Assembly (NCBI GenBank): GCA_963677485.1
Contig: OY781964.1
Span: 2,272,001 to 2,336,000 of the forward strand
DNA: 64,000 nt
Source: Armatimonadota bacterium
Lineage (GTDB): Bacteria > Armatimonadota > HRBIN16
Direction: 5' to 3'
Within the stretch, counting starts at the first letter, position 1, and every line of letters starts with the position of its first letter. Under the pieces are notes generated by a model. The model saw only the letters and a list, made by a program, of their open reading frames with translations, had not been told where the DNA came from and did not search any database. This document shows positions 1 through 64,000 of the stretch, in pieces. The position numbers and the translations under genes were made by a program.

Positions 1-642
1 TGGGAAGGCGCCGTTATCTTGACGAAAGAGATCATGACGGAATGCCGAAAGTATAATCCCGACTGGAATATGAGCTTCGAGTGCAACTGGGACCGCATGA
101 TCCAGTTCGGCGGAGCCACCTGGTGGGTGGGCAACCAGCTTGCCACTCGCGCGGTCTTCCCTGAGAATGTGGAGACGATGGGCCATTATCAGCCTTATGA
201 CTACCTGGGGTTGAACAACGGCATCCGCGGCGGCCACGCGATCATGGTGGCCCCGCTGAACTTCAGCAGGGGTGTGGATTGGAAGCCGTTTGAAGGCATG
301 GCCGACTACTACCGCGACGTGAAGAAGATACGCGATGAACTTCAGGAGGCGGTGTTCTGGGGTGAGGTGATGGGACAAACCGGCATCGAGTTCCCTGATT
401 CGCTGCCTGGCGGCATCGAATACAACACCTTCCGCAACCAAACGACTAATCGGCGTGTGGTGGTCATCACCAACTCGACTATGTCGCCTGTTGATCTGTC
501 ACTGGGCAGCTTCACTGGCGGAAACAAGTCAGCGCGGTACCATGTGCCCGGCAAGAAAGCGCGCACCGTCACACTGCCGGCAACTGTGTCGGTACCCGCC
601 GAACGCGTCGTGTTCCTTGAAGAGATGGAGGCCACTCGATGA
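1..642 (+). CDS. C-terminal part of a putative glycoside-hydrolase-like (DUF6259-like) protein, 5'-truncated by the window
   Basis: Frame is open from base 1 (TGG GAA GGC...). The beta-rich C-terminal tail is typical of GH accessory domains. Stop overlaps the next ATG (ATGA). Family call is by resemblance only. Confidence 0.55.
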   Translation, partial: WEGAVILTKEIMTECRKYNPDWNMSFECNWDRMIQFGGATWWVGNQLATRAVFPENVETMGHYQPYDYLGLNNGIRGGHAIMVAPLNFSRGVDWKPFEGMADYYRDVKKIRDELQEAVFWGEVMGQTGIEFPDSLPGGIEYNTFRNQTTNRRVVVITNSTMSPVDLSLGSFTGGNKSARYHVPGKKARTVTLPATVSVPAERVVFLEEMEATR

Positions 643-2063
643 AACGAACCCTCACATTGATATTCGCCTTGCTTGTGCTGTCCATCGCAGGCATGGTGCA
701 GAGCCAGACTAATGGCGGTTTTGAAACCGGCGACTTTAAGGGCTGGAAGGCCGATAAAAACTGGATCATCGCCGACAAGTCTGCGCCTTATTACCTGGGC
801 TGGAATGGCCGTAACTTCGCATGGAGCGGAGGAGGCGGGGAGACCACTCTGGGAGTTTTGCAGAGCGAACCCTTCAAACTGGTGAAAAGCGGAATCCGAC
901 TGATGGTTTCGGGCTGGTCAAGCATACACGGCACCGGACAACCAAGAATCTGGAACTATGTCACCCTCAACCTTGAGGATGGCACGGAACTAGACCGGGT
1001 CTACACGCCGGATACCACCAACTTCGTCTATTCCTACCTGGATGGCCATAAAGCCAAGGGTAAGATGGTCTATGTTAAGGCGGTTGATGATGCAGAAATG
1101 GGCTCATACAGCATGATCTGCATCGACAACGTGATGCAGGCTGACCCTCCAGCAGATTCGCTGAAGAAGGTCACTCGTGGTGCCACCAAGGGAAGCATCG
1201 TGCTGCAGAATGCGCAGCTCCGGCTGGAGTTTGACCCCAAGAACGGCTCGCTGACGCGGCTGTGTAACCAAAAAGGGTTGGAGTTGATCATGGAGCCGCG
1301 GCTGGGTGGAAGCTACCGGTTTGCGCTTCCCATCCCCGGTAAGGAGCCCTGGCAGACGCTGGAGGCCAACTGGATATTCGGGGCTCAGCAGAAGCTGAGC
1401 TCGTATCGGCAGGATGGCAACACTCTGACGATGCGATGGGATGGCCCTCTGAAAAACTACCTGGGCGAAAGTTTCGACGTTTCGGTCCGGCAGACAGTGG
1501 AGCTGACACCATCCGGTGTGCAGTTCGATATGTGGGTGGATAACCGCTCCACGTACACCGTGGGAGAGACTTATTACCCGTTATTCGGTGGGCTACAGGG
1601 GCTGGGCAACACTCGCCAGCAACTGAGGAACACCGAGTTGGTACGTCCGGCTGCTACAGACGGTATGTCAACCAGCAAGATATTCAATGTATTCAACAAC
1701 ATGGCCCCGTTTGGGGATCAGGGTCCTGAGCAGTACTTCAACATCCCGCAGGATCAGCCGCAGGCGTGGGCTGCCCTCAGCAATGCCGCATTGGCCCAGA
1801 ACGTATTCATAGGAGCCAAAGTGGTGGATAAGCGGCCTTACACCCTGCGTATGGAGCTGTTTCCCGGAAGCAGCGGTGCGCCGCGTGAAGACGGCAACTG
1901 GCCCAGGCCCAGTGAGTTGAAGGGTCTGCCCGCCGGTGTGGAGCTTTGCTTCGTGCAGCAGGCCAATCATCCCGCTGGCAAGGTGTATCGCGCGCCATCG
2001 GTGTATGTGCAGTTCATCGGCGGCAACCGCGACGCATTGAAGCAGATCACCACCGGCCGGTAG
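639..2063 (+). CDS. Secreted carbohydrate-related hypothetical protein (NGGFETG CBM-like N-domain plus beta-supersandwich)
   Basis: Signal peptide MKRTLTLIFALLVLSIAGMVQS; NGGFETGDFKGW motif; LQNAQLRLEFDPKNGSL motif typical of GH N-terminal supersandwich domains. Confidence 0.6.
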   Translation: MKRTLTLIFALLVLSIAGMVQSQTNGGFETGDFKGWKADKNWIIADKSAPYYLGWNGRNFAWSGGGGETTLGVLQSEPFKLVKSGIRLMVSGWSSIHGTGQPRIWNYVTLNLEDGTELDRVYTPDTTNFVYSYLDGHKAKGKMVYVKAVDDAEMGSYSMICIDNVMQADPPADSLKKVTRGATKGSIVLQNAQLRLEFDPKNGSLTRLCNQKGLELIMEPRLGGSYRFALPIPGKEPWQTLEANWIFGAQQKLSSYRQDGNTLTMRWDGPLKNYLGESFDVSVRQTVELTPSGVQFDMWVDNRSTYTVGETYYPLFGGLQGLGNTRQQLRNTELVRPAATDGMSTSKIFNVFNNMAPFGDQGPEQYFNIPQDQPQAWAALSNAALAQNVFIGAKVVDKRPYTLRMELFPGSSGAPREDGNWPRPSELKGLPAGVELCFVQQANHPAGKVYRAPSVYVQFIGGNRDALKQITTGR

Positions 2064-2132
2064 GGTATCGGTGGTGTAATCTTGGTAGGTTGGGGCGAAC
2101 GGCTGTTCGCCCCAATAGTTTTTACCTTTGGC

Positions 2133-3026
2133 TTACTTGCCAGGGGGCGGGGGCTGAGGGTTGGATGGCATACCCGGAAGCTGCACACCCATGTCTTTCA
2201 TGGTCTGTAAATCTTCCATCGTGCGTTTCATCATACCATCACGTTCTTCGGGCGTCATGCTGTTCATCGCTTTGACACCCTCAATCATCATCTGCACGCG
2301 GGTGCGGGAATCCATGTTATTTGACATAGCCATCATGCCCCGCATCGCCGCAGCCCGCTCATCAGGGTCCATGCTCATTATCGCTGCCAGCAGTTTTTGT
2401 TGGATGGCCTGAAGGCTTTGCGCATTGATGGCACCCGCCGGGATGCTGCTGGGGTCCGCGGTCAGGTCAAACAGGTCAATCCCGTTGGCGGAGGCCCATG
2501 CCGGCTTGCTGTCATACACAACATATACTGCGATTGTGTTGAAAGACGGGTTCATTTTTTCAAGCCCGGACGCGTAGTTCTGAGGCACCTCTACCGCCTT
2601 GGCGAAACTGCTGATCTTGTTGCCTGCAGGGTCTTGGATGATCATGCCGGTCGCTTCCATCGCCTCCAGAGAGCGGACCATCGCGGCTAGCCGCTCCGGT
2701 TTGGGTTGCTTCATCTTCGCTCGCAGGTAGACTTTGCGCCATTTGATTGTTTTTAACGGAGTCAACGTGAGTTCCAAGCCCTGCTCGAAGCTTTTCGCTG
2801 CAGGATCGATCTTAACGCGGTTCGTTAGTCCAGGTTCAACTACTAAAGTTTTGTCGTATTTTTTAGCCCATTCTGCCAGAACCGTGGCGATGGGTGTACC
2901 ATCGTTGACAGGGGGTGCAACCACCTCTGGACCGGGACCACCCTCAGGCGGCTCAGGTTGGGGCTGCTGTGCGAAGGAGGTGGTTGATGCGCACATCAAT
3001 ACAGCGGCGATCAGGTATCTTTTCAC
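2133..3026 (-). CDS. Secreted STN/N0-like family protein, solitary paralog of the 32-39 kb array
   Basis: GTG start after GGAGGG; signal peptide ending FAQQ; shares PIATVLAEWAKKYDKTLVVEP and WRKVYLRAKM.QPKPERLAAMVR motifs with the array genes. Confidence 0.8.
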   Translation of the reverse strand: MKRYLIAAVLMCASTTSFAQQPQPEPPEGGPGPEVVAPPVNDGTPIATVLAEWAKKYDKTLVVEPGLTNRVKIDPAAKSFEQGLELTLTPLKTIKWRKVYLRAKMKQPKPERLAAMVRSLEAMEATGMIIQDPAGNKISSFAKAVEVPQNYASGLEKMNPSFNTIAVYVVYDSKPAWASANGIDLFDLTADPSSIPAGAINAQSLQAIQQKLLAAIMSMDPDERAAAMRGMMAMSNNMDSRTRVQMMIEGVKAMNSMTPEERDGMMKRTMEDLQTMKDMGVQLPGMPSNPQPPPPGK

Positions 3027-3057
3027 GTTCGTTCCCTCCATGGGTCAATGCAATCTA

Positions 3058-3086
3058 TTTATACCCTCTGTTGAGTAGAAATGCAA
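3058..3086 (-). promoter_or_regulatory. Putative sigma70-type promoter TTGCAT-N17-TATAAA
   Basis: The same TTG(C/T)ATTTC...GTATAA motif is upstream of paralogs at 32094, 33884 and 36150. Confidence 0.55.
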
Positions 3087-3119
3087 TAGATGAACGCCTA
3101 TATGACGAATATTGGCCCG

Positions 3120-4165
3120 TTACGGTTCAACTAGCTGCAATCGAAGCAGGCCGACGCAGCCATATCCGTTGCCTTTTGCTGAGCCGGTGTAGAATAGACT
3201 GAAGCTGCCGTCAGTCTCAGGAACCAGACCCAGCGGGGTGCGCATGTCTGCAACCCACCAATCGGGGCTTTGAGTGAGCACCAACTGCTTCGCGCGCGAC
3301 CATGTAAGGCCATCTGCCGAGTCGGCATACCCGATAGAGTGAGAGCCTGGCTCGTGTATAGTGTCGAACACCGCCATATACCTGCCACTCTTCAAGCGAG
3401 TCACCACCGGGTTTTCTGTGCCAAGCTCACCGTTCAACGTCACGGGATTACCTGCGGTCATGCGCTTCCATGGTCCTTTCAGGCTTGATGACTGCATCAA
3501 GCCCACCTTCCACCAGGTCGCCGCGTCGCTGCTGCCGTAGAAGCCCATCCACCCTTTCCCCACTTTGTAAGGGAAGACCGAATCGGTGCCTTGCGCACTT
3601 TCCCAGCTCTGACTCTCTGCACCGGGCTGCAGGATGATTTCCACATCGCGCCATGAACCGGAAAGGCCGTCTGGGCCCTTCTTCTGGCTCACGGCCCGCC
3701 ACAACTGCCCATTCCAGTTGACAGACCCTGCATTGTTCACAGGGCCTCGGTACGCCACATAAAAGAGGTTCCACAGCTTCGCCTGTTCGTCGTAGACCGG
3801 CATCGGGGCCCAAAGGCAGGCGCGTGGGTCATTGCCTGAGGTATCTCCGCTGCTGGTATACATCGTGTCGTGGCGGTTCCAGTGAAGCGATCCTTACTGA
3901 GCCAGTGACCCAACCTCATTTTGACCCACTTGGGATCACCTGCCATTTCGCTGGTGAACAGGTGATATACACCTTTCCACTTAAGCACGCAGCCGCCCTC
4001 GAAGCCGTATTTGTTGCTTTCGGTGCCGGGGTCACCATTCTTGATGACGGGATCCAGCCGTTGCTCGATGATCTTTAGGGTGACTCCGCAATCGCGAGGC
4101 GCTTCCTCGGCGATGGCGATGCAGGGATACACCAGCAGCAAAGGTAATAACCAGGTGAGTTTCAT
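3120..4165 (-). pseudogene. Secreted five-bladed beta-propeller glycoside hydrolase (GH32/43/130-like) split by a 1-nt frameshift near 3885
   Basis: ORFs 3737-4165 (signal peptide, FEGGC) and 3120-3863 (WAP, TDS, ENP motifs) join as ...WLSKDR(L)HWNRHDTMYTSSGD if one base is added. May be a sequencing error. Confidence 0.7.
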
Positions 4166-15888: not shown

Positions 15889-16008
15889 AAAACTTGTCTG
15901 CACTAATCGTTGTTGATTCGATAGTTTGGTTTTAGGGCGCCCACAAGGGACGCCCCTACGACCAGTTTCAGTTACAGTCTGGGCTGCCGTGCCAGCACGG
16001 GCGGGTGC

Positions 16009-62559: not shown

Positions 62560-62966
62560 GGCGACTAAACCCGCGGCAGTGTGGCGGGCATCCTGCGATG
62601 TGGGTGACCCGCCCCGTGTCGACGGGTTCCATCGCCCCAGGGGGCTCCATCACCCGTCGCTGATTAGATGGCTGCCCGCGTCGCTTCGCTCCTGCAGGCG
62701 CTAGCGGAGGGCCATGCGCCTGCTTGCGGGCTGCAAATACCTAGACGCGCGGTGAGGGAACCCCGTTTAGGGACGCCAGTCCCGTGGGGTGACCAGCCCC
62801 CGGCAGCGTGGCGGACATCCTGCGATGTGGGTGACCGGCCCCGTGTCGACGGGTCCATCCCTATCCGTGTCATCCGTTCCATCCGCGTAATCCGTGGTTC
62901 AGACATGCATCGGCGATCACGGGAGATCGTGTCGCTTACCAGAAGGGCGATTCGCGAATCGCCCCT
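62560..62966. repeat. Repeat family B copies, short tandem modules and the REP-like IS110 target
   Basis: 62741-62810 is the reverse complement of the 27121-27310 flanks; 62561-62633 is duplicated at 62790-62860; GGGCGATTCGCGAATCGCCC at 62945. Confidence 0.8.
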
Positions 62967-62984
62967 AGTACGCTATATATGGTG

Positions 62985-63180
62985 AGCTCCCCGGACACCA
63001 AAAGCAGTCGGGGAGCTAATCTCACCCCTTAGCTGGGGGTGAAGGAGAAGGATTGGATGCCGGAACCGCCCCTGGTGGAAAACACCGTGACGTAGATAGG
63101 CATCCTTCTCCCAATCAACCCATATCGAACAGTATCTTGGGAGAAAACCCCGTGTTCGCTAGGCTGATTTGGTTGATTGC
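62985..63180 (+). ncRNA. Putative IS110 bridge RNA
   Basis: 5' stem-loop followed by two large stem-internal-loop domains whose loops match the target and donor junction sequences (see findings). Confidence 0.78.
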
Positions 63181-63212
63181 ACCATCAATCACTACCAACT
63201 GGAGATTACCAC

Positions 63213-64000
63213 ATGCACGAAGTTGAAGACAAAATCTACATCCATTATGTCGGGATCGACATCTCGAAATTGACGTTTGACGCGTCTGTATTAGGTTCAT
63301 CGCACAAGCCGATAGACCATAAGGAGTTCAAGAACAACAAGGCCGGATACAAGGAGTTGTTGTCATGGGTGAAGAAGCTTACCCGAACTCCCGCCTTGTA
63401 TGCGGCTGAAGCCACCGGGCCTTACAGCCGACCGCTGCTTGATTACCTCTACGAGCACCAGCACGATGCTGTCCAACTGGAGCCAAAACGGGTTCTCTAT
63501 CACCGCAAAGCCAAAGGCTGGGAACAAAAGACGGACTGCTCTGACAGCGTGCTAATCGCTGACTATGTGAAAAGTCACAATGTCTCACTCTATGTCCCTC
63601 GTCTAGCATGCTATGATGCGCTTATTGGTTACACCAATGACCGCCGTATGCTGGTGCAACACAGACAGGCGATCGCCCAGCGCCAAAGCTGTCGGCTTAC
63701 GCGGAGCACAGTGCTGGACGAGATGATCGCTTTTCATGACATGGGCATCAAAAAGCTTGATGTTCAGATCAAAGAGCTTGTGATGAGTTCACCGCAGATG
63801 ACCGAAGATATGGCTCTGCTGAAGAGCATTCCGGGTATCGGCGACGTCACAGCAAGCTATTTCCTTGCGAAAATCGGTGATGCTAAACGATTTGAAACAT
63901 CGAAAGCGGTCGCGCGCTATTTCGGAATGAACCCCTGCCCGCAACGGTCAGGAAGCTGCAAGACATACGACGGCTCCATATCCAAGATGGGTGACCGATA
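63213..64000 (+). CDS. IS110 DEDD recombinase/transposase (3'-truncated by the window; absent from the ORF track)
   Basis: Hand translation is open to the window end: YVGIDISK, AEATGPY, KTDCSD, SIPGIG, RFETSK..ARYFGMNP..QRSGS, ISKMGD; GGAG RBS at 63201. Confidence 0.92.
   Translation, partial: MHEVEDKIYIHYVGIDISKLTFDASVLGSSHKPIDHKEFKNNKAGYKELLSWVKKLTRTPALYAAEATGPYSRPLLDYLYEHQHDAVQLEPKRVLYHRKAKGWEQKTDCSDSVLIADYVKSHNVSLYVPRLACYDALIGYTNDRRMLVQHRQAIAQRQSCRLTRSTVLDEMIAFHDMGIKKLDVQIKELVMSSPQMTEDMALLKSIPGIGDVTASYFLAKIGDAKRFETSKAVARYFGMNPCPQRSGSCKTYDGSISKMGDR

What the first reader, a model, noticed from the sequence alone, without database searches (positions are those of the whole stretch)
62945..64000. 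IS110 element with a readable bridge RNA programmed against this genome's REP-like palindrome
Seen: the non-coding end folds into a 5' hairpin (AGCTCCCC 62985 / GGGGAGCT 63017), a small hairpin, and two large domains. Domain 1 is closed by GGAGAA..GGATGCC / GGCATCC-TTCTCC with an apical GGTG-GAAAA-CACC. Its left loop ACCGCCCCT (63065-73) matches the left flank ATCGCCCCT (62958-66) at 8/9 positions, ending in CT. Its right loop CGTAG (63091-95) is the reverse complement of CTACG, the ending of uninterrupted REP-like copies here (GCCCCTACG at ~15952 and ~53875). Domain 2 is closed by CAATCAACC / GGTTGATTG. Its right loop CTAG (63159-62) complements the element's own start (CT-AG), and its left loop is ACAGTATCT (63129-37). 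Known: IS110/IS621 bridge RNAs have target- and donor-binding loops around a CT core, and IS621 targets REPs; from memory, its left donor guide is also ACAGTATCT. Inference: this is a divergent RNA-guided recombinase that retains its DEDD and Ser motifs and homes to an abundant repeat. A -10-like TATAT at ~62974 fits a promoter formed on circularisation.
Basis: partly seen in the sequence, partly recalled or inferred. Interest (0 to 1): 0.88.

Follow-up and report, generated by a model that had tools for sequence, protein, structure and literature searches.

The report
IS110 element with readable bridge RNA
This is a 1.8-kb IS110-type jumping gene whose own guide ("bridge") RNA spells out both the repeat-palindrome it lands in and its own two ends; it is a well-documented example of a mechanism that is already known.

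Summary
The element runs from window 62967 to 64778 on the window scale (1812 bp). It has 12 copies in this genome. All 12 follow ...CCCCT, all 12 end ...ACAGTATCT, and 11 of 12 are followed by AC; this copy has AT.

The left-end RNA folds into a 5' hairpin, a small hairpin and two internal-loop domains. Loop 1 (GAACCGCCCCT / CGUAG) reads the REP-like site. Loop 2 (ACAGUAUCU / ..CUAG) reads the element's ends.

Site occupancy tracks guide match. Exact 11-nt sites are 6 occupied to 1 free, and one-mismatch sites are 4 to 27.

Four related families (45-41% protein identity) and two distant IS110s carry different guides. All but one loop match their own flanks.

The protein keeps the IS621 residues D, E, D, D and S.

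Verdict: a new member of a known kind, the IS110-group bridge recombinases. Other copies in this genome were already noted by this scan.

One thing is unexplained. This clade carries a conserved ~145-nt stem-loop inside a disordered C-terminal extension, and a long right end.

The parts
62945..62964 (+). REP-like palindrome GGGCG-ATTCGCGAAT-CGCCC. Its 3' arm is the left half of the target.
   Evidence: The same hairpin type flanks 10 of 12 copies. Free copies are listed.
62965..62966 (+). CT core at the left junction.
   Evidence: 12 of 12 left flanks end in CT and 12 of 12 elements end in CT.
62967..63212 (+). Left non-coding end (246 nt) that encodes the bridge RNA.
   Evidence: The boundary comes from 12 aligned copies.
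62969..62974 (+). -10 hexamer TACGCT of the junction promoter.
   Evidence: It lies 17 nt after the right-end TTGACA once the ends are joined. In the integrated state the -35 place reads GGCGGT, GGCGAT and the like. Relatives have TATGCT at the same spacing.
62981..63021 (+). 5' stem-loop of the RNA.
   Evidence: There are compensatory pairs between IS-A and its relatives.
63022..63042 (+). Small hairpin.
63044..63111 (+). Target-binding domain: outer stem, inner stem, internal loop and apical GGUG-GAAAA-CACC.
   Evidence: Helices 1-3 are 100% paired, with 4 compensatory pairs.
63063..63073 (+). Left target guide GAACCGCCCCT (9 to 11 nt including the CT).
   Evidence: It is identical to the left flank of 6 of 12 copies, and one mismatch away in 4.
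63091..63098 (+). Right target guide CGUAG, followed by AUA (handshake-like).
   Evidence: It complements CT-AC(G). 11 of 12 right flanks start AC and 4 of 12 start ACG. The AUA complements donor positions 5-7, TAT (my reading; the handshake concept is).
63112..63179 (+). Donor-binding domain, closed by CAAUCAACC/GGUUGAUUG.
63129..63137 (+). Left donor guide ACAGUAUCU.
   Evidence: Identical to the last 9 nt of the element.
63152..63163 (+). Right donor guide GUG-[UU]-CGCUAG, plus G.
   Evidence: It pairs with CT-AGTACGC as 6 Watson-Crick pairs, 2 G.U pairs and 1 mismatch. The same register in IS-B gives 9 of 9, with two covarying positions (my reading).
63213..64000 (+). IS110 recombinase gene (430 aa). 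It runs on to 64505 on the window scale, past the window's end.
   Evidence: PF01548 and PF02371. Full ORF in L001. D16, E66, D108, D111 and S246 align to IS621 D11, E60, D102, D105 and S241.

Best explanation
This is an active or recently active insertion sequence of the IS110 group. It is 1812 bp long, spanning window-scale 62967-64778, and has 12 copies in the genome.

Inferred mechanism, by homology with IS621:
1. The element excises as a circle. This brings the right-end TTGACA 17 nt upstream of the left-end TACGCT, and so switches on a roughly 200-nt bridge RNA.
2. The first internal loop of the RNA pairs with the insertion site. [quoted passage not shown]
3. The second loop pairs with the joined ends of the element. 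ACAGUAUCU reads the right end, and ..CUAG reads the left end.
4. The DEDD/Ser recombinase then exchanges strands at the CT core.

The programmed site is the 3' foot of one subfamily of the genome's REP-like hairpins.

Shown here: element boundaries, copies, guide-to-site and guide-to-end matches, covariation in relatives, conserved RNA pairing, catalytic residues and promoter geometry.

Inferred only: transcription, the circle, and RNA-guided catalysis.
For: Boundaries and copies:
- There are 12 copies at 12 unrelated loci with identical ends.
- 10 have intact, near-identical ORFs. 2 carry a 16-bp deletion.

Guide versus site in this genome (11-nt guide, 9 non-core positions):
- 0 mismatches: 6 occupied, 1 free.
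- 1 mismatch: 4 occupied, 27 free.
- 2 mismatches: 0 occupied, 61 free.
- 3 mismatches: 1 occupied, 506 free.
- 5 mismatches: 1 occupied, 3739 free.
- The total is 29,602 free N9-CT-AC sites.
- Within the single TTCGCGAA hairpin family, exact-match hairpins are 6 of 7 occupied and the two one-mismatch variants 4 of 23 (counted from the list).

Covariation in relatives:
- IS-B: guide CGCGCCCCT, flanks CGCGCCCCT and CCTGCCCCT.
- IS-C: guide GTCATCCCT, 6 of 9 flanks exact and 3 with one mismatch.
- L037 and L038: 8 of 9 each.
- A guide matches its own flanks best in every row of the cross table, with one tie.
- Distant L059, L047 and L046 have right guides CGCAAAG, CGCAAAG and UCCAGAG. These match their right flanks 7 of 7, read by eye. 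One search confirmed L059 and L046 at 0 mismatches.

RNA structure:
- 31 pairs are 94.8% paired, against 34-45% when slid.
- 6 compensatory pairs, against 0-2 in the controls.
- A model built from these RNAs finds full-length matches upstream of 3 of 31 more distant IS110 genes at E < 0.001.

Protein. Promoter.
Against: - There is no direct evidence of RNA, circle or activity. The runs available were contigs only and showed no circle junction.
- Rfam has no family that matches, so no curated bridge-RNA model was scored.
- Only 5 distinct RNAs, effectively two lineages, support the stem covariation.
- This very copy sits in a site with one left and one right mismatch.
- One copy has 3 and one has 5 mismatches to the 11-nt guide.
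- L046's left flank matches its guide poorly: 3 mismatches at its best match, and 4 of 9 in register.
- In IS-B, IS-C and L059 the left donor guide differs from the end at 1-2 positions.
- The right end is longer than the left end, unlike the published IS110-group pattern.
Confidence: 0.9

Rival explanations
1. The element is a fossil. The RNA, the ends and the ORF are intact in sequence, but the element no longer moves, and the 12 copies date from one past burst.
For: No polymorphic insertion or circle was seen in the contigs of the isolate runs. 2 of 12 copies are frameshifted.
Against: 10 ORFs are intact and 99-100% identical at 10 different loci. That argues for recent spread. Contigs cannot show rare events.
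Confidence: 0.07
2. Site choice is made by the protein, or by the hairpin shape of the REP, and not by the RNA. On this view the loop matches are REP and end fragments carried in the left end as protein-binding subterminal repeats or as a leader that regulates the transposase.
For: All sites lie at the foot of hairpins. A preprint reports that ISPpu10 also needs a target hairpin (abstract only). The stems that close the loops vary little.
Against: Within one hairpin family, a single base-pair variant changes occupancy from 6 of 7 to 4 of 23. The left guides differ among families, each matching its own sites, inside a conserved scaffold. The right guides are reverse complements, not repeats. 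The IS621 homologue is shown experimentally to be RNA-guided.
Confidence: 0.03

Closest known systems
IS621 (E. coli), IS110-group bridge recombinase with bridge RNA (Durrant et al. 2024, PMC11208160; Hiraizumi et al. 2024, PMC11208158; passages read)
   Same: - The DEDD RuvC-like domain and the Tnp domain have all five catalytic residues aligned.
- The RNA is encoded in the left end and has a 5' stem-loop plus two internal-loop domains.
- The core is CT.
- The left guides read the top-strand sequence and the right guides are reverse complements.
- The target is ...CT-AC in a REP. IS621's target is ATCAGGC-CT-AC.
- The handshake-like AU after GUAG is the same as A81/U82 of IS621.
- A promoter is split across the circle junction.
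   Different: - The protein match is distant (E 2.5e-28 over residues 10-274).
- The protein is 430 aa against 326, with an ~90-aa tail predicted to be disordered.
- The element is 1812 bp. The right non-coding end is 273 nt, against about 107 for IS621 (298 minus 191).
- The left guide matches over 11 nt rather than 9.
- There is an extra small hairpin between the 5' stem-loop and domain 1.
- A conserved 145-nt stem-loop lies in the 3' coding part.
ISPpu10 / ISPpu9 of Pseudomonas putida (IS110 elements in REPs; abstracts only)
   Same: They insert into REP hairpins. ISPpu10 circles make a hybrid promoter. ISPpu9 carries an extra RNA module downstream of the transposase.
   Different: No sequence comparison was made here. 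ISPpu10 is reported to lack the 5' stem-loop, which this RNA has. Here the 3' stem-loop lies inside the ORF and is never found on its own in the genome, unlike ssr9.
IS1111 group of the IS110 family
   Same: The same recombinase family. A long right end.
   Different: Here the bridge RNA is in the left end, not the right end.

Membership tests
IS110 family recombinase | DEDD RuvC-like domain (PF01548) plus Tnp domain (PF02371). | tested here: met
   E 1.8e-21 and 4.4e-22, both above the curated cut-offs.
IS110 family recombinase | Catalytic D, E, D, D and Ser, as in IS621 D11/E60/D102/D105/S241. | tested here: met
   D16, E66, D108, D111 and S246 align to these residues (alignment; residue list). 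They are invariant in 8 of 8 clade members.
IS110 group bridge-RNA system | A 2-nt core is present at both junctions. | tested here: met
   CT lies before the element and at its end in 12 of 12 copies. Terminal inverted repeats and a longer duplication were not specifically searched for.
IS110 group bridge-RNA system | Left-end RNA with a 5' stem-loop and two stem-loops that have internal loops. | tested here: met
   94.8% of cells are paired, with 6 compensatory pairs.
IS110 group bridge-RNA system | Loop 1 is complementary to both halves of the target, around the core. | tested here: met
   (left half). (right half: AC in 11 of 12).
IS110 group bridge-RNA system | Loop 2 is complementary to both ends of the element, around the core. 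| tested here: met
   Left donor guide 9 of 9. The right donor guide gives CUAG plus discontinuous pairs (read by eye).
IS110 group bridge-RNA system | Guides covary with targets among homologues. | tested here: met
   One exception is the left guide of L046.
IS110 group bridge-RNA system | A promoter is reconstituted across the circle junction. | tested here: met
   By sequence only: TTGACA, 17 nt, then TACGCT. The -35 sits at the same distance from the end in IS-B, IS-C, L037, L038, L059, L047 and L046.
IS110 group bridge-RNA system | The RNA is expressed, the recombinase binds it, and a circle forms. | not testable with these tools
   Only contigs were available.
IS110 group bridge-RNA system | A match to a curated bridge-RNA covariance model. 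| tested here: inconclusive
   Rfam 15 gave no match at E <= 1. Whether it holds such a family is not known to me. My own model R1 links this RNA to the leaders of 3 distant IS110 genes.
IS110 group (as against IS1111) | Long left end and short right end. | tested here: not met
   The left end is 246 nt and the right non-coding end is 273 nt; relatives have 342-376 nt. The RNA position still places the element in the IS110 group.

The most novel reading that the evidence does not exclude
This small clade has 7 protein clusters above 40% identity. It has added a 3' module of about 570 nt to the minimal bridge system. The module is a conserved ~145-nt stem-loop read on the + strand, overlapping a disordered C-terminal tail, plus a long structured right end.

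The most novel reading is that this stem-loop is a third functional RNA or DNA part of the transposition machinery. It might be a processing or stability signal that sets the recombinase dose, or a structure that gates excision. On this reading it is not a protein domain.
Probability: 0.25. Interest if true: 0.6.

Novelty: new member of a known kind. Interest (0 to 1): 0.45.

Why it matters
This is a natural, fully decodable bridge-RNA system from a lineage far from E. coli.
- The host's class holds only 18 genomes in the set searched.
- No close relative was found in 400 sampled genomes of the phylum.

It offers a ready-made orthogonal recombinase and RNA pair with an apparent 11-nt left guide.

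It also gives a within-genome dose-response. Nearly all exact-match sites are occupied, and one-mismatch sites are mostly free.

Sibling elements show natural retargeting to different REP subfamilies by changes in one loop.

For annotation, it explains 12 repeats and marks which REP subfamily is the landing pad.

The mechanism itself is already published, so the gain is a new example, not a new principle.

Tried and rejected
Searches that gave nothing:
- Rfam gave no match on the window part or on the whole element.
- The search for related loci on genome contigs with the protein found no relative.
- blastn of the IS-B left end against E. coli genomes, meant to reach IS621 itself, gave no match. 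IS621's own RNA was therefore never compared letter by letter.
- A paper search for the donor 9-mer returned only unrelated papers among the 10 of 401 listed. The string is absent from the main text of both 2024 papers, and supplements are closed.

Sequencing runs:
- Only Logan contigs were available.
- The isolate runs X1 and X4 hold the element as a high-depth unitig that ends at the element's boundaries. No circle junction or empty site was seen. Contigs cannot show either if it is rare.
- The metagenome run X6 holds a 1772-nt relative with 97 differences in 1633 nt.
- Contigs from the RNA library X15 cover flank, left end and gene start of a relative (21 differences in 390 nt). DNA carry-over cannot be excluded, so I do not count this as expression.
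- The listing of differences was cut (83 not shown), so I make no claim that the loops are free of changes.

Tests that were badly posed or did not run:
- The 7-mer right-target test was too strict for the IS-A clade, whose right guide is 5 nt. It gave 2 mismatches at unrelated places.
- A duplex search between the left end and the 3' stem-loop timed out and was dropped.

Other checks:
- Pfam on the C-terminal 103 aa gave nothing below E 0.18.
- The listing of cluster members gave no names.
- L040 has an unrelated sequence in place of the left end and was dropped from the RNA alignments. L039 equals IS-C and was left out of A3 and A4.

Full report
**Observation.** The ORF from 63213 runs off the window and carries the two IS110 domains. 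The left non-coding end folds better than shuffles (z -3.94, 0 of 200 shuffles as good; z -3.51, 1 of 200). It forms a 5' hairpin, a small hairpin and two domains with large internal loops.

**Boundaries and copies.**
- The window is G000:C1:2272001-2336000, and the genome holds 12 copies.
- I aligned the 12 copies with their flanks. All left flanks end ...CCCCT, and the shared sequence starts AGTACGC.
- All 12 copies end ...GCCACAGTATCT. After that the flanks diverge, starting AC in 11 of 12, ACG in 4 of 12, and AT in the window's own copy.
- The element is therefore 1812 bp, window-scale 62967-64778, with a CT on each side.
- Ten copies have an intact 430-aa ORF. Two have a 16-bp deletion that splits the ORF.
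- The outer flanks are unrelated, so these are separate insertions.

**Guides against sites in this genome.**
- The 5' strand of loop 1 reads GAACCGCCCCT (63063-73).
- Six of 12 left flanks are identical to it over all 11 nt. Four differ at one position, one at three and one at five.
- I counted all N9-CT-AC sites in the genome, giving these occupied-to-free figures:
  - 0 mismatches: 6 to 1.
  - 1 mismatch: 4 to 27.
  - 2 mismatches: 0 to 61.
  - 3 mismatches: 1 to 506.
  - 5 mismatches: 1 to 3739.
  - The total is 29,602 free sites. With the 7 non-core positions of a 9-nt guide the trend is the same.
- The sites are the 3' foot of REP-like hairpins. CGCCCCTAC occurs 228 times against about 60 expected, behind many different hairpin sequences.
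- Within the single hairpin type GGGCG-N-TTCGCGAA-N-CGCCC, the variant that matches the guide is occupied in 6 of 7 cases. The two variants with one changed base pair are occupied in 4 of 23 (counted from the list). By my own hypergeometric arithmetic, p is about 0.002.
- Shape is the same in these hairpins and only the letter differs. This speaks for reading by base pairing.
- The 3' strand of loop 1 holds CGUAG, the reverse complement of CT-ACG.

**Guides against the element's ends.**
- ACAGTATCT occurs twice in the element: at 63129 in the 5' strand of loop 2, and as the last nine bases.
- The 3' strand of loop 2 ends in CUAG, which pairs with CT-AG at the joined ends.
- If the pairing continues with a 2-nt bulge, IS-A gives 6 Watson-Crick pairs, 2 G.U pairs and 1 mismatch. 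Its relative IS-B gives 9 of 9 in the same register. Two positions change on both the RNA side and the DNA side (read by eye).
- Durrant et al. describe such a discontinuous right donor pairing for IS621.
- The bases after GUAG (AUA) complement donor positions 5-7, and the G after CUAG complements target position 7. These are the places of the handshake guides of IS621.

**Covariation in relatives.**
- The genome holds a second family, IS-B, at 45% protein identity with 2 copies. Its RNA has the same scaffold but the left guide CGCGCCCCT. Its flanks are CGCGCCCCT and CCTGCCCCT.
- A genome of the same genus, G003, holds IS-C at 42% identity with 9 copies. The guide is GTCATCCCT. Six of 9 flanks are identical and three differ at one position, all in a different REP hairpin.
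- The metagenome loci L037 and L038 give 8 of 9 each.
- In a cross table, each guide matches its own flanks best, with one tie.
- A covariance model built from the five RNAs found all 14 copies in the genome. Among 31 more distant IS110 loci, it also found full-length matches just upstream of three genes at E 4.6e-7, 4.5e-6 and 2.5e-4, and a fourth at E 0.14.
- In L059 and L047 the right guide is CGCAAAG and the right flank is CT-TTGCG. In L046 the right guide is UCCAGAG and the flank is CT-CTGGA. All three are 7 of 7 (read by eye; one search confirmed L059 and L046 at 0 mismatches).
- L059's left guide matches its flank 8 of 9. L046's does not (3 mismatches at its best match).
- The stems themselves hold up. 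Of 31 pairs, 94.8% are paired, against 34-45% when the partner is slid. There are 6 compensatory pairs against 0-2. This rests on five sequences from two main lineages, so the support is modest.

**Protein.**
- phmmer finds IS621 (8wt6) at E 2.5e-28 and ISCro4 at 5e-26.
- In the printed alignment, D16, E66, D108, D111 and S246 stand opposite D11, E60, D102, D105 and S241 (the chain numbering is shifted by 2). Hiraizumi et al. show these residues to be essential.
- They are invariant in the 8 aligned clade members.
- The clade is small. Only 7 clusters lie above 40% identity, and the next hits fall to about 30%.
- No match at E <= 1e-50 was found in 399 other genomes sampled from the phylum, beyond G003.

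**Promoter.**
- Once the ends are joined, a perfect TTGACA in the right end lies 17 nt before TACGCT (62969-74).
- In all 12 integrated copies the -35 place holds GGCGGT, GGCGAT or similar.
- The relatives keep TTGACA or TTGACT at the same 15 nt from the end.
- This fits the published split promoter.

**What differs from the textbook case.**
- The element is about 570-640 bp longer than the distant relatives L059 (1239 bp) and L046 (1175 bp).
- The extra length is a C-terminal extension plus a right non-coding end of 273-376 nt with conserved small hairpins. The published pattern for the IS110 group is a short right end.
- In codons 336-400, third positions are as conserved as first and second (0.65/0.65/0.62). 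The core shows 0.60/0.59/0.41.
- This stretch folds into a long stem-loop: 50 pairs, 7 of them compensatory, with conserved G.U pairs that favour the + strand. It is 94.8% paired against 24-37% when slid, and z is -3.38.
- AlphaFold gives pLDDT below 35 and no secondary structure for residues 342-430, from an alignment of only 8 rows.
- Pfam and Rfam find nothing there.
- The stretch occurs only inside IS-A and IS-B copies.
- I cannot say what it does.

**Comparison and verdict.**
- The element works like IS621 and meets every sequence-level criterion of an IS110-group bridge system that I could test. The exception is the end-length pattern.
- Expression, circles and activity were not testable. 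The runs were contigs only and showed no junction.
- Bridge RNAs were predicted in 85.7% of catalogued IS110s. This is therefore a new member of a known kind: well resolved, with natural retargeting among siblings and an unexplained 3' RNA-like module.
- First readers of this scan had already noted other copies of the same element in this genome, with the same reading. I reached the boundaries, guides and promoter before seeing those notes.

Noticed in passing
L001 2810-2960 (+), window-scale 64254-64404, past the window's end: A conserved ~145-nt stem-loop lies inside the coding region for the C-terminal extension of the recombinase. It has 50 pairs, 7 of them compensatory. There is no third-codon relaxation, and the tail is predicted to be disordered.
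   Followed up: partly
G000:C1:1296596-1298385 and 2667678-2672000 (L023, L026, L027, L072): A second bridge-RNA IS family, IS-B, at 45% protein identity, with its own guide. One of its two copies is interrupted by an IS21-type element, with IstA (rve, Mu-transposase C-terminal domain) and IstB ORFs.
   Followed up: partly
G000:C1:1369196-1370991 and 1871159-1872955: Two IS-A copies are 1796 bp long, with a 16-bp deletion that splits the recombinase ORF. Their ends and RNA are intact, so they could move only with help in trans.
   Followed up: partly
whole genome; in the window at 15951, 21945, 31486, 31962: A REP super-family whose hairpins differ but all end CGCCCCTAC(G), with 228 copies. 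The largest subfamily...GCCCACAAGGGACGCCCCTACGACC, has 84 copies and no IS-A in it. It lies two mismatches from the 9-nt guide.
   Followed up: partly
window 62863-62905 (L001 1419-1461): Just upstream of the REP lies a run of ATCCGTG/CATCCG-like short repeats. It is laid at very high depth in all four runs (3527 against 44 for single-copy flank in X1), with many loose ends. Similar runs lie beside other IS-A copies. This is another abundant repeat family.
   Followed up: no
G003:C1:5014205-5017696 (L029, L030): Two IS-C copies lie in the same orientation only 2.27 kb apart, each in its own REP.
   Followed up: no
A3 columns 74-79 with 218-223 (window about 63038-43 with 63181-86): A possible 4-6-bp stem, GGUGAA/UUCACC, would enclose both guide domains. 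It is conserved but shows no compensatory change.
   Followed up: no
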